A program made the position numbers and the translations under genes. Positions 8,129 to 49,774 of a stretch of 64,000 nt of DNA are shown here, piece after piece. This DNA comes from Candidatus Aldehydirespirator sp. GTDB taxonomy: Bacteria > Actinomycetota > Acidimicrobiia > Acidimicrobiales > Aldehydirespiratoraceae. Every line of letters begins with the position of its first letter. Position 1 is the stretch's first letter. Location: assembly GCA_965219165.1 (NCBI GenBank), contig CBDCMW010000002.1, positions 422,706 through 486,705 on the forward strand. The letters run 5' to 3'. The notes below the pieces were generated by a model, which was not told the origin of the DNA, searched no databases, and saw only the letters and a list, made by a program, of their open reading frames with translations.

Positions 8129-9193
8129 GTGACGGTTTCCGATAGCGCGGCCGGCGCGGGGGTCGTCGTGTTCGGCGCCGGCGCGACAGGTGCGCGGATC
8201 GTTCGCATGCTCAGCGCCAGCTCCCGGGTCGGCTCCGTGGAGGTGCGGGACACAGATCCGGCTCGGCTGCAGGAAGTCTCGGGCTCGCTCGGCACGACCG
8301 CGGTGATCGGCCAGGGCATGGCTGTGCCCGACGGTACGGACCTGGTGGTAGTGGCCACGACGACGGGCACCCAGGCCGCCTTGGCCCTGAGCGCGGTGAG
8401 AGCGGGTGCGGCCGTAGTCACAACCACCAACGAGATCACCGAGACCCGCGACCTGCTCGCGATCAACCAACAGGCGGAGCGGCAGGGCGTGCCGCTGGTG
8501 GTGGGCGCCGGGTACATGCCCGGCCTTACCTGCCTGCTGGCTCGCTTGGGCGCTGCAGAGTTCGACACAGTGGACGAGATCCATGTCGCCAAGGCCGGCA
8601 CGGGCGGCCCGGCTTGCGCGCGCCAGCATCACCGGGCCCTCAGCAGCCTCGCCATCGATTGGCGGGACGGTCGTTGGACGCGCCGGCCCGGCGGCTCGGG
8701 ACGGGAGCTGTGCTGGTTTCCCGATCCCGTGGCCGGGCGGGACTGCTACCGGGGCGCGCTCCCGGATGCGCTGCTCCTGGTGTCGGCGTTCCCCGGCGTC
8801 AACCGGGTGACAGCCCGGATGGCGGCCACCCGACGCGACCGGCTGACGGCGCCATTGCCGATGATGCGCCGCCCGCATCCCGAGGGTGCAGTGGGAGCGG
8901 TGCGCGTCGAGCTTCGTGGCTGGCGCAACGGGGGGCGTCACGTGGCGGTGCTCGGCGCCCAGGCGCGTCCGGCGGAGGGCTCGGCCGTGGTGGCCGCTTC
9001 GACGGCTCTGCACCTCATTGACAACGGGATCAAAGTTGAGAACGGGATCAAGATTGACAACGGGATCAAGCCCGGAGCGGCGGGGCTGGCCACCATCGCG
9101 CATCCTGGGAGCCTGTTGAGAGAGGTGACGGCCAGGGGGCTGCGCCCTTGCAGGTTCGAGGGGTTCGCACTGTCACGCGCCGCCGGTTCTTGA
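8129..9193 (+). CDS. Saccharopine dehydrogenase-like NAD(P)-binding protein (putative)
   Basis: 354 aa. N-terminal Rossmann motif VVVFGAGATGARIV, followed by VVGAGYMPGLTCLLA, typical of Sacchrp_dh-type proteins. Contains a 3 x 18-bp in-frame repeat near the C-terminus. Confidence 0.5.
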   Translation: MTVSDSAAGAGVVVFGAGATGARIVRMLSASSRVGSVEVRDTDPARLQEVSGSLGTTAVIGQGMAVPDGTDLVVVATTTGTQAALALSAVRAGAAVVTTTNEITETRDLLAINQQAERQGVPLVVGAGYMPGLTCLLARLGAAEFDTVDEIHVAKAGTGGPACARQHHRALSSLAIDWRDGRWTRRPGGSGRELCWFPDPVAGRDCYRGALPDALLLVSAFPGVNRVTARMAATRRDRLTAPLPMMRRPHPEGAVGAVRVELRGWRNGGRHVAVLGAQARPAEGSAVVAASTALHLIDNGIKVENGIKIDNGIKPGAAGLATIAHPGSLLREVTARGLRPCRFEGFALSRAAGS

Positions 9194-13276: not shown

Positions 13277-14455
13277 ATGGAGCGACTGCTGGCCGCACTC
13301 ATGGTGCTTGGCCTCATCGCCGCCGCCTGCAGTGGCGGCGAGCCGGCGGACGGTGGGGGCCCCAGCACGCCCGACGACGGCGCCGCTGGGGATGAGCCCG
13401 CCACCAGCACCGCCCCCGGCAACGCCGAGCCCGCGGCGGACGGTGGGGGCCCCAGCACGCCCGACGACGGCGCCGCCGGGGATGAGCCCGCCACCGCCGT
13501 AGGCGAAGGCGAGCCCGCCGAGGAGATGATGCTCGATGAGCTGAATGTGGCTTACCTCTTGGAGTGGCCGACGGCGAATCAGGCGGCCGGGCTGGAGAAG
13601 ACCTATGACGAGGCTCTGGATCTGACGGTGAACTGGATCCCGTTCGCGTCGGGCGGCGACATGGCCCAGGCGATGGAGTCCGGCGACGTCGACATCTCCT
13701 ATTCGCAGGATCTGACGTCGTTCGCGAGCTTCGTGACCGGCGGCTCCGACTTGCTGCTGGTGGGGGTGGCGGTGAGCTACGCGGATGCCCACAACTGTGT
13801 GGCCCATCCCGACTATGGCGTGAGCGCGGACAGCGCGGCGCAGTCGCTGGCCGGACAGAGCATCTACACGCCTTTGGGCAACGCGACCCACCTCAAGCTG
13901 TTGAAGATGCTCGAGCATCTGGGGGTGGACACCGCCACGGCGAGCCTGATCCGGTCCGAGGGCGGCCCGGCAGCGGTGGTCGCGCTGGACTCGGGCGAGG
14001 TGGCTTTGGCGTGCGCGTTCGGCGACGCGGTGAACCAGATGATTGCCAACGGCGGCAATCTGGTGATGACCGGCGCCGAGCAGGAGGCCATCGGCATCCG
14101 CGTCTTCGACATCATCTCCACCGCTGGAGACTTTGCTGAGGCCTACCCGGACACCGTCACCGGCTTCCTGCAGGTGACCGAGGACGCCAACCGGGCCTAC
14201 AACGACACCCGGGACCCGTTCATTGACACCATCGCCGAGGCCGCGGGCATGGACCGCGAGCCGACCATCGCGCTGCTGGACGCGTTCTCGTTCCCCGAGA
14301 AGGACGTGCAGTTGTCTGAGGCGTGGCTCGGCGGGACCGTCCAGCAGCTTATGAAGGACCAGATGGACTTCTTCGTCGCCCAGGGCGAGATCGCCTCGGC
14401 GCTGGGAAGCTACGACGGCTTCGTCGACACCAACTTCCTCGAAGCCGTCAACTGA
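13277..14455 (+). CDS. Lipoprotein, NMT1/THI5-like (taurine/sulfonate/betaine-type) ABC substrate-binding protein
   Basis: ATG at 13277. Lipobox LIAAAC. Pro/Asp/Gly linker with a duplicated 20-aa segment, then an SBP-like domain. No permease or ATPase gene adjacent. Confidence 0.7.
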   Translation: MERLLAALMVLGLIAAACSGGEPADGGGPSTPDDGAAGDEPATSTAPGNAEPAADGGGPSTPDDGAAGDEPATAVGEGEPAEEMMLDELNVAYLLEWPTANQAAGLEKTYDEALDLTVNWIPFASGGDMAQAMESGDVDISYSQDLTSFASFVTGGSDLLLVGVAVSYADAHNCVAHPDYGVSADSAAQSLAGQSIYTPLGNATHLKLLKMLEHLGVDTATASLIRSEGGPAAVVALDSGEVALACAFGDAVNQMIANGGNLVMTGAEQEAIGIRVFDIISTAGDFAEAYPDTVTGFLQVTEDANRAYNDTRDPFIDTIAEAAGMDREPTIALLDAFSFPEKDVQLSEAWLGGTVQQLMKDQMDFFVAQGEIASALGSYDGFVDTNFLEAVN

Positions 14456-15646: not shown

Positions 15647-16267
15647 GTGACTCTTCGTGACGCTAGGTCGGGCTCGACTCGACGATCGCTGGACAGCGAG
15701 ACCGTGATCTCGGCCGCAGCGCGAATCGCCGACGAGGCGGGACTCGACAAGCTGACCCTGACCCGGGTGGCCGACGCTCTCGGCGTTCGCCAGCCTGCCC
15801 TCTACCGGCATGTGGGCGGCTACGACGACCTCATGCGCAGCTTGAGCCTCCTGGGCCGCGAGATCCTGGCCAAGAAACTCTCCGACTCGGCCGTCGGCCT
15901 AGCCGGCGACGACGCCGTGGCCGCGGTAGGCCACGCCTGGCGGGCCATGGTCCGGGACCATCCCGGCATCTACGCCGCAACTGATCGCTACCCGTGCGCG
16001 GGCGACCCCGAGCTGGAGAGCGCGGTGGAGCAGGTGCTGGCCGTGGTGGGTCAGGCTCTCAGGGCCTACGACCTCTCCGAGGAGGACCGGGTTCACGCCG
16101 CTCGCACCCTGCGCAGCGCCTTCCACGGATTCAGCCATCTGGAGTCGGGCGACGGCCATCCGCTGCCGCATGACCCCGACGACACCTTCACCCATCTCGT
16201 GGAGCTGCTGTGCGTCGGCATCGAACGGCTGGCCCGCACGTCCGGTGCTCGCGGGGCAGCTGCCTAG
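15647..16267 (+). CDS. TetR family transcriptional regulator
   Basis: GTG at 15647, preceded by GGGAGGGA. HTH region LTLTRVADALGVRQPALYRHVGGYDDL. C-terminal WHG-like region (AFHGFSHLE). Confidence 0.8.
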   Translation: MTLRDARSGSTRRSLDSETVISAAARIADEAGLDKLTLTRVADALGVRQPALYRHVGGYDDLMRSLSLLGREILAKKLSDSAVGLAGDDAVAAVGHAWRAMVRDHPGIYAATDRYPCAGDPELESAVEQVLAVVGQALRAYDLSEEDRVHAARTLRSAFHGFSHLESGDGHPLPHDPDDTFTHLVELLCVGIERLARTSGARGAAA

Positions 16268-16310
16268 TGGCTCAGAACAGGTTCCTCCTCGACCGCGGCA
16301 GGGGTGCGGG

Positions 16311-17825
16311 GTGACCCGGCTCGGGTTCCTATTGGACAGCGACAGCTGCATCGGCTGTCACGCCTGCACGGTCGCGTGCAAGAGCGAGCACGACATTCCG
16401 TTGGGCGTCAACCGCACCTGGGTGAAGTACATCGAGACCGGTACGTTCCCCAATGTCAACCGGCACTTCTCGGTGATGCGCTGCAACCACTGCGACGACG
16501 CGCCCTGCATCGCCATCTGCCCCACCAACGCGCTGTTCCGGGCAGCCAACGGCGTGGTGGACTTCGACGACAGCAACTGCATCGGCTGCAAGGGGTGCAT
16601 GAACGCCTGCCCGTACGACGCCATCTACATCAACCCCGTCACCAACACCGCCAACAAGTGCAATTTCTGCAACCACCGCATTGAGCAGGGCCTCGAGCCG
16701 AGTTGCGTGGTGGTGTGCCCCACCCACGCCATCAAGGTCGCCGATCTCGACGACCCGAACGACGAAACCACGAGGATCATCGCTCGTAGCGACACCGCGG
16801 TGCGGTCCCCGGAGCAGCAGACCCTGCCCAAGGTGCACTACCTGGGCGCCGATCAGGCCTCGCTGGACCCGCTGCGCACCGCCATCGCGGCCGACGGCAT
16901 GATCTGGGCCGACACCACGCCGCAGCATCCGACGGCCGAGCCCGACGGCCACGGCGTGGTGGCCCGCACCGCCTACACCACCGCCCATCAGATGACCTGG
17001 AAGGCCAAGGTGTCGAGCTATCTGGTCACTAAGGCGATCGCCGCCGGTGTGATGGCGGTGGCCGCTCTGTTGGCGCTGCTGGGCCACGGCGGCTCGCAGG
17101 CCGCGGTGGGTGTGATGCCGCCGGTGGTTGCGGGGTTCTTCCTCGCGGTAACGGGTGCGCTACTGGTGGGGGACCTGCGCCGCCCGGAGCGCTTCTACTA
17201 CCTGCTCACCCGGAGCAACCGCCGCTCCTGGCTGGTCAAGGGCGCATGGGTGCTCGGCGGATTCGCGGCCGTGTGCGGAGCGTGGTTCGTTGCCGGTGTT
17301 GCGGGCTCGCCGGCGGTGCTGCAGGCGCTGGCTGTGCCCGCGGCGCTGCTGGCTGCGGCCACCGCCGGCTACACGGCCTTCCTGTTCGGTCAGTGCGAGG
17401 GCCGGGACCTGTGGCAGACGCCGCTGCTGCTGCCGACGCTGCTGGCCCAGGCCGCGGTGGCCGGCGGCGCCGCCTATTCGCTGGCGGATCTTGCCATCGA
17501 GATCCCCGAGGCGGCCGCGGTGCGCTGGGTGATGCTGGGCGGAATCCTGGCCAGCGCGGTGCTCATCGCGGCCGAGGTGGCGTTGCGGGGCACCGCCCAT
17601 GTGGAGGCGGCTGTGGCGGCCATGACCCGCGGCCGCTACGCCCGTCGCTTCTGGGCCGGAGGCATGGTGTTGGGCCTGGTCCTGCCTGGAGCCGCCACCG
17701 CCGCCGCCCTCGCGGCCGGCGCCGGCGCTGCGCTGCCCGCCGCCGCGGGGCTGGCCGCGCTGGTGGGCATGTGGTTCTACGAGGACAGCTTCGTTCGGGC
17801 CGGCCAGTCCGTCCCGCTGTCGTAG
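16311..17825 (+). CDS. 4Fe-4S ferredoxin-type subunit fused to a polytopic NrfD/PsrC-like membrane domain (Mo-oxidoreductase electron-transfer/anchor subunit)
   Basis: GTG at 16311. Four Cys clusters (CIGCHACTVAC, CNHCDDAPCIAIC, CIGCKGCMNAC, CNFC...CVVVC), followed by ~300 aa with multiple hydrophobic helices. No twin-arginine signal. Confidence 0.8.
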   Translation: MTRLGFLLDSDSCIGCHACTVACKSEHDIPLGVNRTWVKYIETGTFPNVNRHFSVMRCNHCDDAPCIAICPTNALFRAANGVVDFDDSNCIGCKGCMNACPYDAIYINPVTNTANKCNFCNHRIEQGLEPSCVVVCPTHAIKVADLDDPNDETTRIIARSDTAVRSPEQQTLPKVHYLGADQASLDPLRTAIAADGMIWADTTPQHPTAEPDGHGVVARTAYTTAHQMTWKAKVSSYLVTKAIAAGVMAVAALLALLGHGGSQAAVGVMPPVVAGFFLAVTGALLVGDLRRPERFYYLLTRSNRRSWLVKGAWVLGGFAAVCGAWFVAGVAGSPAVLQALAVPAALLAAATAGYTAFLFGQCEGRDLWQTPLLLPTLLAQAAVAGGAAYSLADLAIEIPEAAAVRWVMLGGILASAVLIAAEVALRGTAHVEAAVAAMTRGRYARRFWAGGMVLGLVLPGAATAAALAAGAGAALPAAAGLAALVGMWFYEDSFVRAGQSVPLS

Positions 17826-24867: not shown

Positions 24868-25139
24868 TGCTGCTGGTTCCCTGTCCCAACTGCGGGCCGC
24901 GCAACTCTGCCGACCTGCGGTACGGCGGCGAGTCTCATGCTCGCCCCGACCCCGCCACTGCTTCCCCCCTGCAGTGGCGGGGCTATCTCTACCTGCGCGA
25001 CAACCCGGCCGGATGGCTGCGGGAGACCTGGTACTGCCGGTCGGGCTGCCGCCGCTGGTTCACCCTCGAGCGCAACACGGCCACCAACGAGTTCCGACAC
25101 CCGCCGGCGCCCGGCGACAAGCGAGGCGGCAAGGCATGA
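24867..25139 (+). CDS. soxD: Sarcosine oxidase delta subunit
   Basis: ATG 24867. 90 aa. Zn-type Cys pattern CPNCG...C..GC and WRGYLYLRDNPAG typical of SoxD. Confidence 0.85.
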   Translation: MLLVPCPNCGPRNSADLRYGGESHARPDPATASPLQWRGYLYLRDNPAGWLRETWYCRSGCRRWFTLERNTATNEFRHPPAPGDKRGGKA

Positions 25140-25351
25140 CCGGCCTGTCCCTTCCACCGGAGGCGTCGGCATGACCGGCCCGTCCCTTCCACCGGAGGCG
25201 TCGGCATGACCGGCCCGTCCCTTCCACCGGAGGCGTCGGCATGACCGGCCCGTCCCTTCCACCGGAGGCGTCGGCATGACCGGCCCGTCCCTTCCACCGG
25301 AGGCGTCGGCATGACCGGCCCGTCCCTTCCACCGGAGGCGTCGGCATGACC
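25136..25351 (+). repeat. Tandem array, 6 x 35 bp (atgaccggcccgtcccttccaccggaggcgtcggc) plus partial 7th unit = soxA start
   Basis: ATGs at 25136, 25171, 25206, 25241, 25276 and 25311, then the soxA ATG at 25346. Units 2-6 are identical; unit 1 has one C->T change. Each unit carries GGAGG 7 nt before the next ATG. Confidence 0.97.
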
Positions 25352-37945: not shown

Positions 37946-39207
37946 CAGGTTCCGGCCTCCGCCATTGCAAGATCTTGGAGGTAGGTCTTGGTGATGGACC
38001 ACCGGTAGTCGAGTTGGCCGCCGATGGGCGCCTGGGTCCAGTCCTCCAGGGCGGCTCGGTGGGACAGCCGGGCCCGCTTCGACTTGAGTCGCCGCTCCCG
38101 CTCGCGGATGAGCCGGTGGACGTCTTTGTTCTCGGCGAACCCGGTTGGGTCGTTGACGGCGCGTCGGGCCATCTGATCCCAGAAGTGCAGGGTGCTGCGG
38201 GCGATGCGGTGGTCGGCCAGGAGTTGCCAGAACTCCGGAGCGTTGCTCACCCAGGAGAGCAACTTGTCATTGCGGTTGTCGACCAACTGACTCCAGTCCT
38301 TGAGTTGGCGTAGCTGGTCCTCTTCAAGATTCTCCGTGTCCCAGCCGAGTTCGTTGCTCGCTGCCCGGGCTGCCAGCACGTTGTAGACGAGCCGTGGTCC
38401 GAGGGTCAGTTCCGAGAAGCAGCGGGCATGGTGCAGAACCTCGACGAGACGGGCGCGGAATTCGTGTACGTCCACAAGCCACGGGTAGTCGACGTCGAAC
38501 ATCACGCCGGGCTTTGCCGACAGGACGGCTATCAACGTGTCCGGATGCCGCCGCCGGATGCCGTCTGCCAAGATCTGTGCCTCGTCGGGCTGGAGCCGGA
38601 AGTCGATCTCGTCGCTCGGGTCGATCTTGCCGCTCGGGTCGATCTTGCCGCTAGGGAAGTCTTTCGGAGCTGGCGGGAGATTTGCCCACATCGACACCCC
38701 TGCCTTCGTGGCGTTGCCGTCGTCGTCGCGTTCGGGCCGGAGCCGCCCGTTGGTGGCTGCCCGCTGCGCGTACTCAGCGAGGCTGAGGTTGAGGCGCCTG
38801 ATGCCCCAAGCCTCCATGCTTCCCCAGTAGATGTCGCTCGGCATTCGCCTCAGGCTTCGGTGGGCGACGCGGCCGATCACCCCTTGGCCCGGCCCGAGGG
38901 GTGATAGACGATCGATTAGCTTCGCCTCAGCGTCACGAAGCCTGCGGGCGAAATCGGCCGCAGAGAGATGCTGATCTTCGAGACTCTTGAAGATCCAGGG
39001 CAGGAAGATGAAGTAGCGCAACCTCGTCTGGACGGTCGAGGTGCCTGGGCTGAGCATGTCTGAGAAGGCGTCCCGTATTGAGCCCAGACCGAGCACGTCG
39101 AGGGTGCTGGGCTCATCGAGCGAGCGCAGGAGGGTGCTCACGCGCTCACTTGCGGCTGCATCGAAGTCAAGCCAGCCCGCTGACGAAGCTGGCGCGTAAG
39201 TGTTCAT
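37945..39207 (-). CDS. Uncharacterised 420-aa protein, first gene of the PLD-helicase operon
   Basis: Long ORF with coding-like GC3. No motif I can assign. Contains a 3 x 18-bp in-frame repeat (PSGKIDPSGKIDPSDEID). Confidence 0.6.
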   Translation of the reverse strand: MNTYAPASSAGWLDFDAAASERVSTLLRSLDEPSTLDVLGLGSIRDAFSDMLSPGTSTVQTRLRYFIFLPWIFKSLEDQHLSAADFARRLRDAEAKLIDRLSPLGPGQGVIGRVAHRSLRRMPSDIYWGSMEAWGIRRLNLSLAEYAQRAATNGRLRPERDDDGNATKAGVSMWANLPPAPKDFPSGKIDPSGKIDPSDEIDFRLQPDEAQILADGIRRRHPDTLIAVLSAKPGVMFDVDYPWLVDVHEFRARLVEVLHHARCFSELTLGPRLVYNVLAARAASNELGWDTENLEEDQLRQLKDWSQLVDNRNDKLLSWVSNAPEFWQLLADHRIARSTLHFWDQMARRAVNDPTGFAENKDVHRLIRERERRLKSKRARLSHRAALEDWTQAPIGGQLDYRWSITKTYLQDLAMAEAGT

Positions 39208-40728: not shown

Positions 40729-43083
40729 GTGTCAACCTTCGGGACCGTGGCGACTGGCCCTCGAACCCAGGCGCAGCGGTCGAGGCGCCGCGGTCGGGAG
40801 TTGCGTCGCCCCGTGATCGCCCTGATGGCGACGGCGCTGCTGGTGGCCGCTTGCTCGAGCGAATCGGGCCCCGGGGCCGTTGAAGATCAGGCCGACGCGA
40901 ATGGGGGCGAGCACGAGGAGGCTCCGATCACCGTGGCGCCCGACCGCGAGGCTGAAGGCGAAGCGACCACGGGGGCGACCCTCGACGATTCCAAGGTCGA
41001 GGCTCCGAGCGCTGCTGAGGAGGTGGGGGATCCTGGCGGCGCGGAAGCGCCCACCTCCACCATCGACGTACTGGACGACGCGGGACGCGCTGAAGAGCCG
41101 CCCACCTCCACGACCTCCCCGGCGGAGCAACCCGAGGTGGACGAGGACCAGCCGATCCCGGCTGCGGAACAACCCGAACAGCCGGTCGAGCCCGAACAGC
41201 CGGACCAGTCTGGAGAAGTAGTAGAGCCCCAAGAGCCGAGCGAGTCAGAAGAGCCCGAGCAGATCGAGGGGCCCGAGCAGATCGAGGGGCCCGAGCAGCC
41301 CGAGCCGGAGCCTGTCGAGCCGACCCCGATAGCCGAGGTCATCGTCTCGGGCTCGCCCGCGCCCGAATGGCCGTTCCGCGGGCTAGTGGAGACTGACTTC
41401 ATTTGGGACTCCGACGTCTACGTCATTCGATACCTCAGTTCCAGGGATCGGACCATCACCGAGACCACGGTTACAGGATTGATCCATAACGGCTATTGGT
41501 ATGGTCAGATAGGCAGCGTGAGCGAGGCGGGCGTCACCGTCTCAGCGACACGCGGCTCCGAACGTGTTCAAATCGTGTTGCCCTGGGGTGAGACCGCCAC
41601 GGTTGTGCCGCGAGGTCAGTACCCCGACGGGGATGCCTCATGGCAGGACATCCGGCTGTCCGTCACGAGCTTGACGCACGGATACGTCATTGGCGGCACG
41701 CCGTTCGACGTCAGTGTTCACGGCAACGGCGTGCGTGTTCAAGCTGGCGAAGCAGCCGCCAATTACGAGTACTACTCCGGTGATGGCGACCCACCGGAGA
41801 ACCCCGAGCTGTACGGCGGCGCCCTTGACTCCTGGACCGACGTGTACTTCATGGGCACTGACGGCGAGTTTGTGGCATTCGCGACCAAGCCCTACGAGCC
41901 GGCCGGTGCTCTGCCGACCGCGTACCTGCTGTCGATGCGCACCGGTGAGGTGTTGGCGTGCGGACTCTCGGGCTATGACCTCGTTCTGGTTCAGCCGCCG
42001 CACGAGGGACTCCTAGTGGAGCAAATCACACTGCCGAACAACCGCCAGCTTCACTCTGATGAGCAGTGCGGTGAGCGGTCGGCGAGCCTGGCCGAGCTCT
42101 GGGGGTCGCTGCCGCCGTCAGGGGCGCCATACCCCCCGAGACAGCCGGGACCCGAGCCGGCGCCCCTGCCGCTCGCGACCGCGCCACCGTGGCCGTTCCG
42201 GGGTGCCGTGCTGGCGTTGCAGCGATACGCCCCGACCAGCTTCAGTTACGAGACGGTGCTGCAGTACTATTCCTCCGAGGACGGCTCGGTCACCGAGCTC
42301 GTGTTCGGACCGATGCGCACCCTCAGCAGGGACCTTGCCATCGACGCCAACGAGCACGCGGTGGAAGTGTCACGGTACGGCTGGGCGGTCAGGGTCCCCT
42401 GGGGTGAGGTGGCCCAACTCTTGGAGGTGGATCTCAACCGACCCAGAACCGCCCGCGCCACTGCCTTCCCGACGCTCCTACAGTTCGGCCCGAGCCACGC
42501 CGAACTTGAGATCGAATCGGTCTATGCCCACGCGCTAGTCACCCGGTTCTCGGCGCCAAGGGAGCAGTCCTGGTACGTCTGGTCTGCGCCCGATGAGAGC
42601 CGGATCGACACAGAGCTGGAGATCAGCAGCAGACCGCCTGTCTTCCCGTTCTGGCTGCGTGGGACCGACGGGCGTATCGCGGCGATCAGCCAGCGAGGTT
42701 CCGGCGAGGACTGCGCATACATGTGCAGTCCAGTGCTCACGGTGCTGATCTCGCTCGAGACGGGGCAGGTGCTGAGCTGCGGCTGGGAGTCCGACGGCGT
42801 CCATGCGCTGGTCTTCGTAGCGCCGACCGGTTCGAACATGACAAGCAATTTGACCCTTCCGCCGTCCGGTTGGCTCGACCCTAGCCAGTGCTACACCCAT
42901 AGGACTGACGCATTCGGTAACTGCTCGTGGTTGGCTTACAGCAAGGACGAGCCGAGATGCAGCCGTCACTTCGAGTTGGCCCCGCTGTCCGACGGCATCG
43001 CCGAGGTGTCGTTGGTTCCGGCCCGCATACAGGTTGACCTGGACCGGCGGAGGCTGCTGATCCAGCCCGCGCTCAGCGGGTGA
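40729..43083 (+). CDS. Large secreted lipoprotein with acidic Glu/Pro-rich linker and two homologous ~250-aa modules (unknown function)
   Basis: Candidate GTG at 40729. Basic n-region RSRRRGRELRRP plus VIALMATALLVAAC lipobox. Modules begin APEWPFRG / APPWPFRG and contain TGEVLACG / TGQVLSCG. Confidence 0.6.
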   Translation: MSTFGTVATGPRTQAQRSRRRGRELRRPVIALMATALLVAACSSESGPGAVEDQADANGGEHEEAPITVAPDREAEGEATTGATLDDSKVEAPSAAEEVGDPGGAEAPTSTIDVLDDAGRAEEPPTSTTSPAEQPEVDEDQPIPAAEQPEQPVEPEQPDQSGEVVEPQEPSESEEPEQIEGPEQIEGPEQPEPEPVEPTPIAEVIVSGSPAPEWPFRGLVETDFIWDSDVYVIRYLSSRDRTITETTVTGLIHNGYWYGQIGSVSEAGVTVSATRGSERVQIVLPWGETATVVPRGQYPDGDASWQDIRLSVTSLTHGYVIGGTPFDVSVHGNGVRVQAGEAAANYEYYSGDGDPPENPELYGGALDSWTDVYFMGTDGEFVAFATKPYEPAGALPTAYLLSMRTGEVLACGLSGYDLVLVQPPHEGLLVEQITLPNNRQLHSDEQCGERSASLAELWGSLPPSGAPYPPRQPGPEPAPLPLATAPPWPFRGAVLALQRYAPTSFSYETVLQYYSSEDGSVTELVFGPMRTLSRDLAIDANEHAVEVSRYGWAVRVPWGEVAQLLEVDLNRPRTARATAFPTLLQFGPSHAELEIESVYAHALVTRFSAPREQSWYVWSAPDESRIDTELEISSRPPVFPFWLRGTDGRIAAISQRGSGEDCAYMCSPVLTVLISLETGQVLSCGWESDGVHALVFVAPTGSNMTSNLTLPPSGWLDPSQCYTHRTDAFGNCSWLAYSKDEPRCSRHFELAPLSDGIAEVSLVPARIQVDLDRRRLLIQPALSG

Positions 43084-44017: not shown

Positions 44018-45301
44018 CTAGCCGGCCGCGGCCATCTCGCGGGCGACCTCGGTTGCGGCGGCCACGGTGGCATCGATCTCTGCTTCGCCGTGGGCCAGTG
44101 AGGGGAAGATGGCCTCGTAGGCACCCGGCGCGAAGGCCACGCCGCGCCGCAGCATCCCGTGGAAAAAGGGGGGATAACGACCGTTATCGGCGGCCTTGCG
44201 GGCTTTGTCGAAGTCGGTTGGCGGGTCCTCCGCGAAGAACAGGCCCAGCAGCGGGCCCACGCGCGGCAGCACCGCGGCCACCCCGGCCGCGGCGAAGGCT
44301 CCGGCCATCCCCTCCTGCAGCGCCCTTGCCCGGGCCTCCAAGTCCCGATGGGCGTCGTCGTCGAGCAAGCCCAGCACCGCCAGTCCGGCCGCGGTGGCCA
44401 GCGGGTTCCCCGACAGGGTGCCGGCCTGGTACACGCCGCCCAGGGGCGCGAGCCCAGACATGATCTCGGTCGATGCGCCGAAGGCGCCCACCGGCAGCCC
44501 GCCCCCGATGACCTTGCCGAAGCACCAGATGTCGGGCTGCACTCCGTACCACTGGGCGGCCCCGCCCCGGCACAGCCGGAATCCGGTGATCACCTCGTCG
44601 AACAGCAGCAGGGCGTCGACCTCGTCGCAGGCGTGGCGCAGGCCCTGCAGGAAGCCGGGCTGCGGCGCCACCAGGCCCATGTTGGCCGCCACCGGCTCCA
44701 CGCACACCACCGCTACCGTCTCGTCGAGCTCGGGGACCACGTTGTAGGGGGCGACGATGGTGTCGGCCACCGCCCCCGCGGTCACGCCCTCGGATCCGGC
44801 CAGGCCCTGCTGGGCCACACCTGAGCCTCCCGCCACCAGCAGGGAGTCGCTGTGGCCGTGGTAGCAGCCCGCGAACTTCACCACCGTCGGGCGCCCGGTC
44901 ACGCCCCGGGCCAGCCGCACTGCCGACATCACCGCCTCGGTGCCGCTGTTGGTGAGCCTCACCATCTCCAAGCCCTCCACCCGGGCGCACATCTCCTCGG
45001 CCATCAGCACCTCGTCGCGTGTGGGTGCCCCGTAGCTGGTGCCTCGCCCCGCCGCCTGCCGCACGGCCTCGACCACTACAGGGTGGGCGTGGCCGCAGAT
45101 GCCCGGGCCGTAACTCTGCACGTAGTCGATGTAGCGACGACCTTCCACGTCGTACACGAACGGGCCGGAAGCCTCGGCCACGAAGTAGGGAGTGCCCCCC
45201 ACCGACCCGAAGGCCCGCACCGGCGAGTTGACCCCGCCGGGAATCACCCGCTGGGCCCGCTCGAACAGCGCCTCGTTGGTGTCGGCCCCGCTCGCGGTCA
45301 T
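44018..45301 (-). CDS. hemL: Glutamate-1-semialdehyde 2,1-aminomutase
   Basis: 427 aa. GGVNSPVRAF, NSGTEAVMSAVRLARG, FDEVITGFR, FGKVIGGGLPVGAFG (PLP Lys). Confidence 0.93.
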   Translation of the reverse strand: MTASGADTNEALFERAQRVIPGGVNSPVRAFGSVGGTPYFVAEASGPFVYDVEGRRYIDYVQSYGPGICGHAHPVVVEAVRQAAGRGTSYGAPTRDEVLMAEEMCARVEGLEMVRLTNSGTEAVMSAVRLARGVTGRPTVVKFAGCYHGHSDSLLVAGGSGVAQQGLAGSEGVTAGAVADTIVAPYNVVPELDETVAVVCVEPVAANMGLVAPQPGFLQGLRHACDEVDALLLFDEVITGFRLCRGGAAQWYGVQPDIWCFGKVIGGGLPVGAFGASTEIMSGLAPLGGVYQAGTLSGNPLATAAGLAVLGLLDDDAHRDLEARARALQEGMAGAFAAAGVAAVLPRVGPLLGLFFAEDPPTDFDKARKAADNGRYPPFFHGMLRRGVAFAPGAYEAIFPSLAHGEAEIDATVAAATEVAREMAAAG

Positions 45302-45455
45302 CGCACCGCCTCACCAGAACTCGGTCGAGAAATGCGCCCTATAGGCACAAAATCAGCACCGAGATTCTGTGGAGGGTCGCTGCGGCGGCCGCCCGGCTGC
45401 GGGCTGCTCGCCCCGCTAGCGGTGTCAGTCTCGACGGTGCTGTCCCCGCCGGCGC

Positions 45456-46436
45456 TCATTGCATGGCCTGGGCCAGGCGGCGGGCGAAGTAGGTGAGCAC
45501 CACGTCGGCGCCGGCCCGCCGGATGGCGAGCACGTGCTCGTGCGCCACCGCGTCGAGGTCGAGCCAGCCCCGCTCGGCCGCGGCGCACACCATGGTGTAC
45601 TCGCCCGATACGTGGTAGGCGGCCAGCGGCACGTCGAAGGTGCGCCGGACCGCCGAGATCACATCGAGAAAGGCCAGCGCGGGCTTCACCATCACCATGT
45701 CGGCGCCCTCGGCCACATCCAGGCGGATCTCCTCGATGGCCTCCCGGGCACCGGCCACGTCCTGCTGGTAGGTCCGGCGGTCGCCCCCGCCCGCGATGGT
45801 CACGCCCACCGCGTCGCGGAACGGCCCGTACAGCGCGGTGGCGTACTTGGCCGAGTAGGCGAGGATGGCGGTCTGCTCGAAGCCCGCGCCGTCGAGGGCA
45901 CCCCGGATGGTGCCGACCTGGCCGTCCATCATCCCCGACGGGGCCACGATGTCAGCCCCGGCGACAGCCTGGGCCAAAGCGATGCGGGCGTAGACCTCGA
46001 GGGTGGCGTCGTTGTCCACGCCGCCGCGGCCGTCGAGCACGCCGCAGTGGCCGTGGTCGGTGTACTCGTCCATGCACAGATCCGCGATCAGCACCATGTC
46101 GTCGCCGAAGTCCGAGCGCAGGTCGGCCAGCGCCACCTGCACGATCCCGTCGGGATTCCAGGCCTCCGAGCCGATGTGGTCCTTGCGCTCCGGCACGCCG
46201 AACAGCACCACCGCCCCGATCCCGAGGGCGTGCAGCTCGGCTACCTCGGCCCGCAGCGACTGGCGGGTGTGCTGGAACTGCCCCGGCATCGACACGATGG
46301 GCTGCAGTTCGTCGATGCCCTCGCGCACGAACAGCGGCGCGATGAAGTCCGCGGGGTTGAGCCGGTGCTCGGCCACGAGCCGCCGCAGGGCCGGAGTCCG
46401 GCGCAGCCGACGCATGCGCCGCTGCGGGAAGTTCAC
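45456..46436 (-). CDS. hemB: Porphobilinogen synthase (delta-aminolevulinate dehydratase)
   Basis: 326 aa. RRLRRTPALRRLV, DIVAPSGMMDG, VMVKPALAFLD (Schiff-base Lys) and AYHVSGEY motifs. Confidence 0.93.
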   Translation of the reverse strand: MNFPQRRMRRLRRTPALRRLVAEHRLNPADFIAPLFVREGIDELQPIVSMPGQFQHTRQSLRAEVAELHALGIGAVVLFGVPERKDHIGSEAWNPDGIVQVALADLRSDFGDDMVLIADLCMDEYTDHGHCGVLDGRGGVDNDATLEVYARIALAQAVAGADIVAPSGMMDGQVGTIRGALDGAGFEQTAILAYSAKYATALYGPFRDAVGVTIAGGGDRRTYQQDVAGAREAIEEIRLDVAEGADMVMVKPALAFLDVISAVRRTFDVPLAAYHVSGEYTMVCAAAERGWLDLDAVAHEHVLAIRRAGADVVLTYFARRLAQAMQ

Positions 46437-46445
46437 CCCGCGAGA

Positions 46446-47237
46446 CTACCCAGCGCCGTCGGGCGCCAGCCACGACCGGGCGTGGCGGACCAGTGCGGCG
46501 ACGACTCCGTCGATGGTGTGCTCGGCGGCCTCCACCGTGACTTCCAGGCCGTGCTCGGCCGCGGTGGCCGACGTGGCCGGGCCGATGGACGCCACCAGGG
46601 GCGGGACCGCTTCGGCGCCGAGTTCGGCCACCAGGCGCTTGACCGTCGACGACGACGTGAACACCACACCGTCGGAGGCGGCCGCCGCCCGGCGCTGGTC
46701 GTCGCTGAGCCGGGCGGCCACGTTGCGGTAGGCGGCCACGTCCAACACCTCCCATCCCGCGGCCCGCAGGCTGTCGGGGAGCACGGGGCGGGCCACCGCG
46801 GCCCGGGCCAGCACCACGAGGCTGCCGCGTTGCGGATCGGGGGACGGGAACGCCTGCACCAGGCCCTCGGCAATCGACCGGTCGGGCATCAGGCGCACGG
46901 TCAGTCCCACTCCCGCGGCCCGGTCCGCGGTCCCCGGTCCGATGGCGGCCACGTTCACTCCGTCGGGCAGCGGTCCGACGGCCGCGGCCCGCTCCGCGCC
47001 GTTGGGGCTGGTGACCACTAGCCAGTCTCCCCGGCTGAGCCGGGCCAGCGCGGCCCGCAGCGCGGCACCGCCGTCCGCGGGGTCCGTGATGGCGATCACC
47101 GGGGCGCTGACCACCTCGGCGCCGACCGCGGCCAGACCGTCGGCCAACGTCTGAGCCTGCTCGCGGGGCCGGCACACCACGATCCTGAGCCCGGCCAGCG
47201 GCTTGGGCGCATGGGGCCGGGGCCGCCGCGGGCTCAT
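46446..47237 (-). CDS. hemD: Uroporphyrinogen-III synthase
   Basis: 263 aa. HEM4-like two-lobe pattern (LAGLRIVVCRP..., WLVVTSPNGA, VVFTSSSTV). Sits between hemC and hemB. Confidence 0.8.
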   Translation of the reverse strand: MSPRRPRPHAPKPLAGLRIVVCRPREQAQTLADGLAAVGAEVVSAPVIAITDPADGGAALRAALARLSRGDWLVVTSPNGAERAAAVGPLPDGVNVAAIGPGTADRAAGVGLTVRLMPDRSIAEGLVQAFPSPDPQRGSLVVLARAAVARPVLPDSLRAAGWEVLDVAAYRNVAARLSDDQRRAAAASDGVVFTSSSTVKRLVAELGAEAVPPLVASIGPATSATAAEHGLEVTVEAAEHTIDGVVAALVRHARSWLAPDGAG

Positions 47238-47330
47238 CGGGCGGTCCCCAGTCGTCGCGGGCTCATCGGGCGGTCCCCAGTCGTCGCGGGCTCATCGGGC
47301 GGATCCCAGTCGTCGCTGGTTCATCGGGCG
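47229..47330 (-). repeat. Tandem array, 3 x 29 bp, between the hemC stop and the hemD start
   Basis: Minus-strand ATGA at 47324, 47295 and 47266, then at 47237 (hemD ATG), with exact 29-bp spacing. Units encode MNQRRLGSAR / MSPRRLGTAR x2. Confidence 0.95.
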
Positions 47331-48226
47331 GATCCCAGCAGCGCCCGGCCGCCGCAGTCGTCCAGCAGGTGCCGGGCCACGGCGCGGCCCAGGGTCTCGG
47401 GGTCGCGGCCGCGGCGGGTGTCACGGATCAGCACCCCGCCATCGAGCGACGCCAGCAGGCCCGTCAGCTCCAGGGCGTCGCCGGAGCCGGTGGTGGCGTG
47501 AGCGCCCGCGGGCAGGCTGCAATCGCCGCCCAGCTCGGCCAGGAAGGCCCTCTCCGCGTCGACGGCCCGCCGGCTCGGCTGATGCTCTATGGCGATCAGC
47601 GTCTCGAGCACTGCCCGATTGTCGGCTCGGCATTCCAGCGCGATGGCTCCTTGCCCGACCTGGGGCACGAAGACGTCCGGCTCGAGTACGTCGAGCACCT
47701 CCGGCGCGAGTCCCAACCGGTGCAGAGCCACCGCGGCCATGACGATGGCGTCGAAGGCGGCTGCCCGCTCCAGCCGGGTGGCGATGTTGCCCCGCAACTC
47801 CGCGAAGGCCAGGTCAGGCCGCAGCCAGGCGAGCTGGGCCTTGCGTCTCGCCGAGCCGGTGGCCACCGTCGCGCCGGGCGGCAGCTCGTCGAGCGCTGCG
47901 CCCACCAGCGCGTCTCGGGGATCGCCGCGCCTCGGCACTGCCGCCAGCACCAGGCCCTCGGGCGTCGACGACGGCAGGTCCTTGGCCGAGTGCACCGCGA
48001 TGTCGGCCCGGCCGTCGAGCACCGCGGCCTGCACCTCCTTCACGAACACGCCCTTGCCGCCCATCTCCGCGATGGGCGTGTCGGCTCGGCGGTCCCCCGC
48101 GGTGGACACCACGACCGGCTCCGTCGCAACCCCGCAAGCCTCGGCCAACAGCCCGGCCACGATGCCGGTCTGACAGCGGGCCAGAGCACTGCCCCGGGTC
48201 GCGGCCCGCAGCACCACAGCGGTCAC
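47321..48226 (-). CDS. hemC: Hydroxymethylbilane synthase (porphobilinogen deaminase)
   Basis: 301 aa. ATRGSALARCQT, DIAVHSAKDLP, LRGNIATRL and the cofactor Cys region GGDCSLPAGA. Confidence 0.92.
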   Translation of the reverse strand: MTAVVLRAATRGSALARCQTGIVAGLLAEACGVATEPVVVSTAGDRRADTPIAEMGGKGVFVKEVQAAVLDGRADIAVHSAKDLPSSTPEGLVLAAVPRRGDPRDALVGAALDELPPGATVATGSARRKAQLAWLRPDLAFAELRGNIATRLERAAAFDAIVMAAVALHRLGLAPEVLDVLEPDVFVPQVGQGAIALECRADNRAVLETLIAIEHQPSRRAVDAERAFLAELGGDCSLPAGAHATTGSGDALELTGLLASLDGGVLIRDTRRGRDPETLGRAVARHLLDDCGGRALLGSAR

Positions 48227-49684: not shown

Positions 49685-49774
49685 TCAGCGGGCCAGGAAG
49701 AAGAGCTGCAGTACCCCGGCCACGACGATCACGGCGAGCAGCGCCACGATGACGATGGTGGTTCCCGGTCTCAT
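49685..49774 (-). CDS. 29-aa hydrophobic peptide (putative)
   Basis: MRPGTTIVIVALLAVIVVAGVLQLFFLAR. Its ATG overlaps the stop of the upstream SAM-hydrolase gene (ATGA at 49774-49771). Too short to validate. Confidence 0.3.
   Translation of the reverse strand: MRPGTTIVIVALLAVIVVAGVLQLFFLAR

What the first reader, a model, noticed from the sequence alone, without database searches (positions are those of the whole stretch)
47229..47330. Second relay array: 3 x 29-bp units between hemC stop and hemD start, each a hemD-5'/hemC-3' chimera
On the minus strand ATGA recurs at exactly 29-bp spacing: 47324, 47295, 47266, then 47237 (the hemD start). The hemC stop TGA (47323-47321) overlaps the first ATG. 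Each 10-codon mini-ORF ends in the ATGA of the next unit, and the last one ends in the hemD ATG.

The mini-ORFs read MNQRRLGSAR, MSPRRLGTAR and MSPRRLGTAR. They start like HemD (MSPRR...) and end like HemC (...LGSAR). The units are therefore duplications of the original overlapping hemC/hemD junction.

This has the same logic as the sox array but an unrelated sequence and unit length. That argues for a general mechanism or selection preserving ATGA coupling, rather than a single mobile element.
Basis: seen in the sequence. Interest (0 to 1): 0.7.

Follow-up and report, generated by a model that had tools for sequence, protein, structure and literature searches.

The report
Duplicated stop-start junction relay array
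The four-letter overlap (ATGA) that joins the stop of one haem-synthesis gene to the start of the next has been copied three times in tandem, making a chain of tiny 10-codon reading frames that can pass ribosomes from gene to gene; relatives show this arising repeatedly, as a home-made counterpart of the MIRU repeats of mycobacteria.

Summary
On the minus strand ATGA recurs at 47324, 47295, 47266 and 47237. Three 29-bp units lie between the hemC stop and the hemD start, and each encodes a 10-codon ORF whose stop overlaps the next ATG. Each unit is a hemD-5'/hemC-3' chimera.

Most related Acidimicrobiales genomes have a plain ATGA overlap at this junction, so that is the ancestral state. The 29-bp unit is a variable-number family with 1, 1, 2, 2, 3 and 4 copies in six genomes. 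Other relatives carry unrelated inserts of 59, 62, 71 and 2x43 bp that also keep an unbroken chain of overlaps. soxD/soxA and hemB/hemL behave alike. Junctions with ordinary spacers never do.

The best explanation is a tandem duplication of a translationally coupled junction that survives because unit length is 2 mod 3, so termination-reinitiation still reaches hemD. Selection is indicated (P about 0.001 against a 1/3 null). A codon-phase bias in microhomology raises the null to about 0.45-0.5 (P about 0.01-0.03).

The logic matches mycobacterial MIRUs, but these units are locus-derived and not dispersed, and the lineage is different. This is a new variant of a known kind. Translation of the mini-ORFs is inferred, not shown.

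The parts
47321..48226 (-). hemC (porphobilinogen deaminase), 301 aa. The stop TGA at 47323-47321 overlaps the ATG of mini-ORF 1.
   Evidence: ORF list. Pfam PF01379 at 1.9e-68 and PF03900.
47325..47338 (-). Partial 'unit 0': the last 14 nt of hemC before ATGA (CTGGGATCCGCCCG). This is the template of the 3' half of every unit and contains the SD-like GGGA.
   Evidence: Unit table. TRF extends the array to 47336.
47296..47324 (-). Unit 1 (ATGAACCAGCGACGACTGGGATCCGCCCG). Mini-ORF 1, MNQRRLGSAR, spans 47324..47292 including its stop.
47267..47295 (-). Unit 2 (ATGAGCCCGCGACGACTGGGGACCGCCCG). Mini-ORF 2, MSPRRLGTAR, spans 47295..47263 including its stop.
47238..47266 (-). Unit 3, identical to unit 2. 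Mini-ORF 3, MSPRRLGTAR, has its stop TGA at 47236-47234, overlapping the hemD ATG.
46446..47237 (-). hemD (uroporphyrinogen-III synthase), 263 aa, with its start ATG at 47237-47235 inside the last ATGA.
   Evidence: Pfam PF02602 at 2.6e-44. The N-terminus MSPRRPRPHAPKPLAGLRIVV aligns with relatives.
25136..25345 (+). Sister array with the same logic: 6 x 35-bp units (ATGACCGGCCCGTCCCTTCCACCGGAGGCGTCGGC). Each is a 12-codon ORF (MTGPSLPPEASA) with a canonical GGAGG 7 nt before the next ATG. It lies between the soxD stop (25137-25139) and the soxA start (25346).
45298..45459 (-). A single 53-codon ORF that bridges the 154-nt hemB-hemL spacer, with -4 overlaps at both ends (ATGA at the hemB stop and ATGA at the hemL start). 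It is a non-repetitive relay, and whether it is functional is uncertain.

Best explanation
This is a junction-derived minisatellite (VNTR) inside the hem operon.

The ancestral hemC/hemD junction was a 4-nt ATGA stop/start overlap, the classic arrangement for translational coupling by termination-reinitiation. A 29-bp segment spanning that overlap was duplicated in tandem. The segment comprises the last 14 nt of hemC, including a GGG(A/G) Shine-Dalgarno-like motif, plus ATGA and the first 11 nt of hemD. It has since expanded and contracted by slippage or unequal exchange.

Because 29 = 2 mod 3, each copy forms a self-contained module: a weak SD, an ATG, 10 codons, and a TGA that overlaps the next ATG. 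A ribosome that terminates hemC can reinitiate on mini-ORF 1, terminate, reinitiate on mini-ORF 2, and so on until it starts hemD. Coupling is thus relayed across an 87-nt insert instead of being broken.

The array persists because this geometry makes it nearly harmless. Duplications that break the chain are removed. The peptides themselves have no function.

Shown: the anatomy, the ancestral state, copy-number variation, recurrence at three junctions, and the frame rule. Inferred: that the mini-ORFs are translated, that reinitiation is what carries ribosomes along, and that selection (together with a codon-phase bias in how duplications arise) maintains the frame rule.
For: Anatomy.

Ancestral state: about 17 relatives have a bare ATGA or GTGA overlap.

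VNTR behaviour: the same 29-bp family has 1 copy (L167-L170, L021), 2 (L172, L171), 3 (window) and 4 (L028). Different unit variants are amplified in the window and in its 97% relative L028.

Frame and ATGA are conserved while sequence drifts. Eight distinct units share only 14 of 29 invariant columns: ATGA, a GGG 9-11 nt upstream of the next ATG, and CCG. The peptides differ (MSPRRLGTAR, MTSPRPGSDR, MSQLRPGNPR, MSPPPLGTPR).

Compensation cases: L171 has a 30-nt unit, but 30+29 = 59 still closes the relay. L022 has a 43-bp unit (1 mod 3) present as two extra copies, giving 86 nt (2 mod 3) and one 29-codon ORF that closes the relay.

Independent unrelated inserts of 59, 62 and 71 nt at the same junction are all relays, in lineages with insert-free sisters.

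The same behaviour occurs at soxD/soxA (35x6, 35, 65x2, 68 bp) and at hemB/hemL (38, 44 and 23 bp and others).

Internal control: junctions with ordinary spacers never form relays (hemA>hemC 0/31, hemD>hemB 0/25).

Statistics: 8 of 9 conservative events (P = 1e-3) or 11 of 14 (P = 7e-4) against a 1/3 null.

A plausible founding mechanism is visible at hemB/hemL in L020. A 10-nt direct repeat CGAGGCCCTG, 38 bp apart, flanks the junction, and a 38-bp chimeric duplication is present.

GGGA and GGGAG are enriched 3-6-fold upstream of starts in this genome.

Published support: -4 NTGA is the commonest coupling motif, and short ORFs can 'deliver' ribosomes to a coupled downstream gene (PMC12548453).
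Against: No expression data exist. Translation of the mini-ORFs and dependence of hemD on hemC translation are inferred.

The SD-like motif in the hem units is weak (GGGAUC or GGGGAC).

A mutational bias could supply part of the frame rule. In this GC3-rich genome, in-phase microhomologies make up 0.44-0.48 of matches, which predicts about 45-50% relay-compatible duplications. Under that null, P rises to about 0.01-0.03.

No microhomology survives at 29-bp spacing at hemC/hemD itself, so the founding event cannot be reconstructed.

Counts of independent events rest on a two-protein NJ tree.

Two hemB/hemL spacers (L005, L081) are genuinely not relays.
Confidence: 0.7

Rival explanations
1. Adaptive rheostat or contingency locus. 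Copy number is selected to tune the HemC:HemD translation ratio, because each reinitiation step passes on only a fraction of ribosomes. The array is then a regulatory device rather than a tolerated by-product.
For: Copy number differs between close relatives (1-4 units). The window's sox array reaches 6 nearly identical units, which implies recent expansion. In M. tuberculosis, the length of a tandem-repeat region upstream of fpg1 correlates with expression (PMC2734929). 'Differential translation within a polycistronic operon' was proposed for MIRUs (PMC2734929, citing Supply 1997). L022's 43-bp unit would toggle the relay on and off as copy number changes.
Against: Most clade members work with a bare ATGA overlap. 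There is no correlation with anything measurable here. Inserts of quite different length and sequence occupy the same site, which looks like tolerance rather than tuning. No expression data exist.
Confidence: 0.15
2. Coincidental frame. The mini-ORFs are not translated, and hemD is initiated independently from the SD-like motif of the last unit. The '2 mod 3' pattern would then come from mutational bias (in-phase microhomology) plus chance.
For: In-phase microhomology share is 0.44-0.48. Each unit carries its own SD-like motif, canonical GGAGG in the sox units and GGG(A/G) in the hem units, so de novo initiation at the last unit is possible. Mini-ORF codon usage is atypical, with 3 CGA among 10 codons against 8% genomic usage of CGA for Arg.
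Against: Even under p = 0.45-0.5 the excess of relays remains (P about 0.01-0.03). The bias cannot explain inserts unrelated to their flanks (59, 62, 68, 71 nt). It also cannot explain conservation of the 29-nt length and of ATGA across diverged units, the compensated cases L171 and L022, or the complete absence of relays at non-overlap junctions.
Confidence: 0.08
3. MIRU-like mobile element. The inserts are copies of small non-autonomous elements that target NTGA start/stop overlaps, duplicate the tetranucleotide, and then amplify in tandem.
For: MIRUs are described in exactly this way, with insertion at start codons, an ORF coupled at -4 nt, and tetranucleotide direct repeats at filled sites (PMC12548453; PMC3184786). 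The 59-, 62-, 68- and 71-nt inserts are flanked by ATGA on both sides and show no significant similarity to their own flanks.
Against: The 29-bp unit is demonstrably made of its own flanks, as are the L020 and L003 38-bp units, the L022 5' half and the L023 20-bp unit. No unit or insert recurs anywhere else in the 64-kb window or in 0.95 Mb of held DNA, and none resembles another. There are no inverted repeats and no stable fold.
Confidence: 0.05
4. Functional or regulatory leader peptides. On this reading the Arg-rich decapeptides, with their rare CGA codons, would sense Arg-tRNA or act as small proteins.
For: Three of ten codons are the rare CGA.
Against: Peptide sequence is not conserved between lineages. 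One CGA is forced by the NNA-TGA overlap geometry. Unrelated inserts at the same site encode unrelated peptides. No attenuator-like RNA structure is present (z = +1.16), no terminator is found, and there is no Rfam match.
Confidence: 0.02

Closest known systems
Mycobacterial interspersed repetitive units (MIRU / MIRU-VNTR; Supply et al. 1997, as described in PMC12548453, PMC3184786, PMC2734929, PMC4213456)
   Same: Both are tandem repeats in intercistronic positions of operons in a high-GC actinobacterial phylum. Each unit carries a small ORF oriented like the flanking genes, and its start and stop overlap those of its neighbours at -4 nt. Copy number varies between strains. MIRU unit lengths at senX3-regX3 (77 and 53 bp) are 2 mod 3, like 29 and 35 bp here. 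The proposed consequence is minimal disturbance of, or modulation of, translation of the downstream cistron.
   Different: MIRUs are 40-100 bp, belong to a dispersed family (about 41 loci per genome) and are interpreted as mobile. They are reported to have imperfect terminal and internal inverted repeats. The units here are 29 or 35 bp and are built from the flanks of their own junction. They are unique to that locus, are unrelated between loci, have no inverted repeats or stable fold, and occur in uncultured Acidimicrobiales. No sequence comparison with MIRU consensus sequences was possible here.
Translational coupling at NTGA (-4) overlaps by termination-reinitiation (Huber et al. 2019/2023; review PMC12548453)
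   Same: Every step of the array uses the canonical -4 ATGA overlap. The ancestral hemC/hemD, soxD/soxA and hemB/hemL junctions are plain NTGA overlaps. L023 and L024 use the -8 motif, which is also listed as enriched.
   Different: The known cases couple two real genes. Here three to six non-functional mini-cistrons are interposed, so coupling would have to be processive through a chain.
Short 'ribosome-delivery' ORFs coupled to a downstream gene (mycobacterial small ORFs, Shell et al. 2015 as cited in PMC12548453; synthetic bicistronic designs)
   Same: A short ORF with no protein function overlaps the main gene's start with its stop and serves only to bring ribosomes to it.
   Different: Those are single leader ORFs at 5' ends. 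Here they are tandemly repeated and sit between two cistrons. The L023 20-bp array at the hemC 5' end is the closest analogue.
Bacterial VNTR/minisatellites generated by slipped-strand mispairing
   Same: Head-to-tail units, copy-number differences between close relatives, and homogenisation within arrays.
   Different: Ordinary intergenic VNTRs have no reading-frame constraint, and in-gene VNTRs have periods divisible by 3. These arrays have periods of 2 mod 3 because they straddle a -4 overlap.

Membership tests
MIRU (mycobacterial interspersed repetitive units) | Intercistronic position within an operon, in the same orientation as the flanking genes | tested here: met
   The array lies between hemC and hemD in the order hemA-hemC-hemD-hemB-hemL, all on the minus strand.
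MIRU (mycobacterial interspersed repetitive units) | Each unit contains an ORF whose start and stop codons overlap those of adjacent ORFs or genes (-4 nt) | tested here: met
   ATGA lies at every unit boundary, giving an unbroken chain from the hemC stop to the hemD start.
MIRU (mycobacterial interspersed repetitive units) | Variable copy number between strains or relatives | tested here: met
   There are 1, 1, 2, 2, 3 and 4 copies in L167, L021, L172, L171, the window and L028.
MIRU (mycobacterial interspersed repetitive units) | Dispersed family: related units at many loci of the same genome (about 41 in M. tuberculosis) | tested here: not met
   Neither the 29-bp nor the 35-bp unit occurs elsewhere in the 64-kb window at up to 3 mismatches. 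No insert matches another insert or any other site in 0.95 Mb. Caveat: only 64 kb of this genome was available.
MIRU (mycobacterial interspersed repetitive units) | Unit size of 40-100 bp | tested here: not met
   Units here are 29 bp and 35 bp. Some relatives have 43- and 65-bp units.
MIRU (mycobacterial interspersed repetitive units) | Sequence similarity to the MIRU consensus, and imperfect terminal or internal inverted repeats | tested here: inconclusive
   No MIRU sequence was available for comparison. The array RNA folds no better than shuffles (z = +1.16), which argues against GC-rich internal inverted repeats.
Translationally coupled gene pair (termination-reinitiation) | Co-directional ORFs with an NTGA (-4), -1 or -8 stop/start overlap | tested here: met
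   There are four consecutive ATGA overlaps, and the ancestral junction in relatives is ATGA or GTGA.
Translationally coupled gene pair (termination-reinitiation) | Translation of the downstream ORF depends on translation of the upstream ORF | not testable with these tools
   This needs reporter fusions or ribosome profiling. Only indirect evolutionary evidence is available, namely preservation of the frame rule.
VNTR / minisatellite | Head-to-tail tandem units of at least 10 bp, with copy-number polymorphism and within-array homogenisation | tested here: met
   TRF reports period 29 x 3.8. Different unit variants are amplified in the window and in L028. Copy number ranges from 1 to 4.

The most novel reading that the evidence does not exclude
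In this Acidimicrobiales lineage, -4 stop/start overlaps are recurrent birthplaces of MIRU-like relay arrays made from the junction itself. Ribosomes really do reinitiate processively through chains of three to six mini-cistrons, so copy number acts as a heritable, reversible dial on the stoichiometry of adjacent enzymes (HemC:HemD and SoxD:SoxA). If that is right, it gives a de novo origin model for MIRUs: junction duplicates that later became dispersed. It also provides a natural allelic series for measuring reinitiation efficiency per step.
Probability: 0.2. Interest if true: 0.75.

Novelty: new variant of a known kind. Interest (0 to 1): 0.55.

Why it matters
Translational coupling at NTGA overlaps is ubiquitous, but its mechanism (70S scanning versus other models) and the strength of selection on it are still debated (PMC12548453).

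These arrays are natural experiments. The same junction appears with 0, 1, 2, 3 or 4 interposed mini-cistrons. It also appears with unrelated inserts, a compensated +1 indel and a '1 mod 3' unit that occurs only in a relay-restoring copy number. Together these show that what is conserved is the chain of overlaps, not the sequence. That is evolutionary evidence that coupling matters for hemC/hemD, whose product would otherwise cyclise spontaneously to the wrong isomer, and for subunits of heterotetrameric sarcosine oxidase.

They also show that MIRU-like architecture can arise locally by junction duplication, outside mycobacteria and without a mobile element. That bears on the unresolved origin of MIRUs.

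There are two practical consequences. Gene callers will leave these regions as unexplained 'intergenic' gaps, and short-read assemblies may break there. L160 ends just past its insert.

Tried and rejected
- **Structured RNA or riboswitch in the array:** rejected. The fold is no better than shuffles (z = +1.16), and Rfam returns only a chance miRNA hit.
- **Internal promoter or terminator in the array:** none found by the consensus scan. That scan covers only sigma-70-type sites.
- **Dispersed repeat family:** rejected. No other copies exist in the window or in 0.95 Mb.
- **Derivation of the 59-, 62- and 71-nt inserts from their own flanks:** local alignment scores no better than shuffles, so their origin stays unknown.
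- **Microhomology at 29-bp spacing at the collapsed hemC/hemD junction or in insert-free relatives:** none of 4 nt or more. A 9-nt repeat GCGGCGGCC exists at 39-nt spacing but does not explain a 29-bp unit.
- **Exact-protein look-ups of the window's HemC and HemD:** not on record.
- **Metagenome scan:** added only two clade members (L080, L081).
- **L173 (apparent hemC-hemD fusion):** dismissed as a 2x-coverage contig with frameshifts.
- **Assembly artefact as an explanation for the array:** rejected, because the same family with different copy numbers and variants occurs in independent assemblies, including several on long contigs or complete chromosomes.
- **Literature searches for locally derived junction repeats outside mycobacteria:** found nothing specific. 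The library is open-access only, so this is weak evidence of absence.
Full report
**1. The observation**

Reading the minus strand of 47100-47460 and scripting the frames confirms the finding to the base. ATGA occurs at 47324, 47295, 47266 and 47237. The three intervening 29-nt units read ATGAACCAGCGACGACTGGGATCCGCCCG, then ATGAGCCCGCGACGACTGGGGACCGCCCG twice. They translate as MNQRRLGSAR*, MSPRRLGTAR* and MSPRRLGTAR*, and each TGA is the last three letters of the next ATGA.

Tandem Repeats Finder independently reports 47227-47336, period 29, 3.8 copies, score 183. The unit is expected zero times in shuffles.

Pfam identifies the flanking ORFs as hemC (47321-48226) and hemD (46446-47237). They sit within hemA-hemC-hemD-hemB-hemL, all on the minus strand.

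The 5' 15 nt of each unit match the hemD 5' end (13/15). The 3' 14 nt match the hemC 3' end (12-14/14). The chimera description is correct.

Each unit is a 12-codon ORF ending in the next ATGA, with a canonical GGAGG 7 nt upstream of each ATG.

**2. Ancestral state and relatives**

A scan of one genome per species recovered 79 hemC loci. The window belongs to an Acidimicrobiales clade labelled 'Candidatus Aldehydirespirator' and relatives. L028 (OZ244832.1) is 97% identical in HemC.

In about 17 genomes at 80-87% identity the hemC stop and hemD start form a bare ATGA or GTGA overlap.

The 29-bp unit is a family with variable copy number:

| Locus | Units |
|---|---|
| L167-L170 | 1 |
| L021 | 1 |
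| L172 | 2 |
| L171 | 2 |
| Window | 3 |
| L028 | 4 |

. The window and L028 have amplified different unit variants, which is typical minisatellite behaviour.

Across eight distinct units only 14 of 29 columns are invariant. These are ATGA, a GGG 9-11 nt before the next ATG, and the CCG preceding ATGA. The encoded peptides drift freely. What is conserved is length, the start/stop overlap and an SD-like motif, not a peptide.

**3. Recurrence with unrelated sequences**

Other relatives carry quite different inserts at the same junction:
- L016 and L081: 62 nt
- L019: 71 nt
- L018: 59 nt, followed by an in-frame HemD extension
- L022: 2 x 43 nt

In every case an unbroken chain of -4 overlaps runs from the hemC stop to the hemD start.

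L022 is instructive. Its unit is 43 bp (1 mod 3), so a single extra copy would break the chain. It is present as two extra copies, and 86 nt (2 mod 3) gives one 29-codon ORF that closes on the hemD ATGA.

L171 has a 1-nt insertion in one unit, making it 30 nt. The two mini-ORFs then fuse in frame, and 59 nt still closes the relay.

L023 and L024 (70-73% identity) use an ATGACTGA (-8) overlap into hemD. The coupling review lists that motif as enriched too.

On a HemC+HemD neighbour-joining tree, the insert-bearing genomes are interleaved with insert-free sisters. That implies at least five independent events at this one junction.

**4. Generality and an internal control**

A survey of all four hem-operon junctions across the clade gives the following.

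| Junction | Ancestral type | Result |
|---|---|---|
| hemA>hemC | Ordinary spacer, 5-351 nt | 0 of 31 relays |
| hemD>hemB | Ordinary spacer, mostly 9 nt | 0 of 25 relays |
| hemC>hemD | NTGA overlap | Relay or in-frame state in nearly all insert-bearing cases |
| hemB>hemL | NTGA overlap | Relay or in-frame state in nearly all insert-bearing cases |

At hemB>hemL, L020 and L003 have 38-bp duplications. L006, L008-L011, L013, L017 and L025 have a 44-nt unit, and L012 a 23-nt unit. All are 2 mod 3 and all are hemL-5'/hemB-3' chimeras. The window itself bridges a 154-nt hemB-hemL spacer with one 53-codon ORF overlapping at both ends.

At soxD>soxA, relatives have either a bare NTGA overlap (L162, L163, L164, L166) or inserts of 35, 2 x 65 and 68 bp. 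All of those inserts are relays.

L023 has a 20-bp x 3 duplication of the hemC 5' end that forms an ATGA relay into hemC.

TRF over all 0.9 Mb held listed 28 arrays with periods of 10 bp or more that are not multiples of 3. Those that carry one NTGA per unit at a coding junction (the 35-, 29-, 38-, 20- and 43-bp arrays) are all relays. The rest lie in ordinary spacers or are weak two-copy matches.

Genuine exceptions exist. The hemB-hemL spacers of L005 and L081 are interrupted by a conserved AT-richer element and are not relays.

**5. Mechanism of origin**

In L020 the hemB 3' end (GCCGAGGCCCTGCA-ATGA) and hemL codons 9-12 (AACGAGGCCCTGTT) share the 10-nt direct repeat CGAGGCCCTG, 38 bp apart. 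Slippage or unequal exchange between these copies produces exactly the observed 38-bp chimeric unit.

At hemC/hemD no such microhomology survives.

The 59-, 62- and 71-nt inserts are not recognisably derived from their flanks, and no insert resembles any other or occurs elsewhere in the held DNA. Their origin is open.

**6. Selection or mutational bias?**

Any insertion that keeps both ATGA copies has a one-in-three chance of the right frame. Counting conservatively, 8 of 9 events at hemC/hemD plus soxD/soxA are strict -4 relays (P = 1e-3), as are 11 of 14 events over three junctions (P = 7e-4).

There is, however, a mutational reason to expect an excess. With GC3 near 0.9, short identities between two coding regions are commoner when both are in the same codon phase. 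Because the downstream frame is offset by the -4 overlap, in-phase repeats lie 2 mod 3 apart.

Measured on the window's genes, the in-phase share of 4-8-mer matches is 0.44-0.48. Under that null the P values become about 0.01-0.03.

The bias cannot explain several observations:
- the inserts unrelated to their flanks;
- the conserved 29-nt length across diverged units;
- the compensated L171 and L022 cases;
- the total absence of relays at non-overlap junctions.

I conclude that both a phase-biased duplication process and purifying selection on the chain of overlaps operate. Selection is indicated but not overwhelming on present numbers.

**7. How it most likely works**

Established knowledge holds that NTGA (-4) is the commonest coupling geometry. 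Coupling falls off with distance, at least in Firmicutes and chloroplasts. A short ORF can 'deliver' a ribosome to a coupled gene (PMC12548453).

An 87-nt untranslated gap would probably weaken hemC-to-hemD coupling. A chain of mini-cistrons, each with a weak SD-like motif and a -4 overlap, keeps every termination event adjacent to a start codon. GGGA and GGGAG are enriched 3-6-fold upstream of starts here.

HemD must act on the unstable HemC product. SoxD and SoxA are subunits of one enzyme. Coupled expression is therefore physiologically sensible (textbook biochemistry, inference).

The array RNA is not unusually structured (z = +1.16). It has no promoter-like or terminator-like site and no Rfam match. 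Mini-ORF codon usage is atypical, with 3 CGA codons out of 10 against 8% genomic usage of CGA for Arg. That is consistent with non-functional peptides.

None of the translational steps has been observed. They are inferred.

**8. Comparison with what is known**

The closest precedent is the mycobacterial MIRU. MIRUs are 40-100-bp units, tandemly repeated in intercistronic regions, with ORFs whose ends overlap the adjacent genes at -4 nt. They are polymorphic in copy number and dispersed at about 41 loci, and they are interpreted as mobile (PMC12548453, PMC3184786, PMC2734929, PMC4213456). The 77- and 53-bp senX3-regX3 units are 2 mod 3, like the units here.

This array shares the architecture, the operon context and the VNTR behaviour. 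It fails the criteria of dispersal and unit size. It is visibly built from its own flanks, and it occurs in a different class of Actinomycetota.

It works like a MIRU but is not a member of that family. I file it as a new variant of a known kind: a locally generated, junction-derived relay minisatellite.

**9. Verdict**

Interest is moderate (0.55). The individual array is explained by known principles and has a published analogue. What is new is the recurrent, multi-junction, multi-lineage pattern with its frame rule, its compensated exceptions and its internal negative controls. That is a clean and apparently undescribed natural demonstration that stop/start overlap chains are maintained. 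It also suggests a de novo origin route for MIRU-like repeats.

Noticed in passing
window 25136-25345 (+): The sox array: 6 x 35-bp units at 99% identity between the soxD stop and the soxA start. Each unit is a 12-codon ORF (MTGPSLPPEASA) with a canonical GGAGG SD and an ATGA overlap. Relatives have a bare NTGA overlap or 35-, 2x65- and 68-bp relay inserts.
   Followed up: yes
window 45298-45459 (-), and L005 from 5749, L081 from 5228: The 154-nt hemB-hemL spacer is bridged by one 53-codon ORF with -4 overlaps at both ends. It contains an AT-richer element (about CAGAATCTCGGTGCTGATTTTGTGCCTATAGGG...GACCGAGTTCTGG) that is conserved in L005 and L081, where it breaks the relay. It could be an internal promoter, a regulatory element or a small insertion. 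There is no Rfam match.
   Followed up: partly
L028 about 5797-5920: In the 97%-identical relative, hemL carries an in-frame N-terminal extension made of tandem repeats (TSGPDT/GGPDT...) instead of the window's 53-codon ORF. The period is a multiple of 3, so the direct ATGA coupling to hemB is kept.
   Followed up: partly
L023 2956-3020: A 20-bp x 3.2 tandem duplication of the hemC 5' end forms a chain of 7-codon ORFs (MTLAVLQ*, MTLAVLR*) with ATGA overlaps leading into hemC. This is a relay at a gene start that is not coupled to the upstream gene.
   Followed up: partly
L022 3903-3988: This 43-bp unit (1 mod 3) is present as two extra copies, giving 86 nt and a single 29-codon ORF that closes on the hemD ATGA. 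One or three extra copies would break the relay or fuse the frame, so it is a potential on/off (phase-variable) configuration.
   Followed up: partly
L171 1442-1500, compared with L172 1443-1500 (same sample, ERZ25067264): Two co-occurring strains differ by a 1-nt insertion in the first 29-bp unit. The 30+29-nt version fuses the two mini-ORFs into one 20-codon ORF and still terminates on the hemD ATGA.
   Followed up: yes
window 49685-49774 (-): A conserved 29-aa hydrophobic small ORF (MRPGTTIVIVALLAVIVVAGVLQLFFLAR) lies about 40 nt upstream of hemA. Its ATG overlaps the stop of the upstream 318-aa gene (ATGA). Nearly the same peptide is present in L002. It is likely a real small membrane protein.
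   Followed up: no
L080 765-928: An 80-bp x 2 duplication (98% identical) includes the hemA 3' end and its TAG stop, within a hemA-hemC spacer. It is a junction duplication at a non-overlap junction and forms no relay.
   Followed up: partly
window 47238-47324 (-): Three of the ten codons in the commonest window unit (units 2 and 3) are CGA, which is only 8% of Arg codons in the window's genes. One of them is forced by the NNA-TGA overlap geometry, and the other two are not.
   Followed up: partly
L160 (whole locus, 1846 nt): This short-read contig carrying the closest soxD relative (91%) ends 73 nt past soxD, immediately after a 68-nt relay insert and the soxA ATG. Assemblies may tend to break at such junction repeats.
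   Followed up: no
L173 402-1598: This is an apparent HemC-C-terminus/unit/HemD fusion protein (P0196, 398 aa) on a 2x-coverage long-read contig. The 3' part of HemD is frameshifted too, so it is most likely sequencing error rather than a real fusion.
   Followed up: partly
window 13334-13495; 9017-9070; 38602-38656; 41253-41298: These are other tandem repeats with periods divisible by 3 (42 bp x 3, and 18 bp x 2.6-3.1). They are presumably in-frame coding repeats and were not examined.
   Followed up: no
window 16223-16312 (+): The relay scan flagged a 15-codon GTG mini-ORF after the stop at 16267 that leads into a 504-aa ORF. It is more likely a start-codon ambiguity of the downstream gene (alternative start at 16245, giving 526 aa) than a relay.
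   Followed up: no
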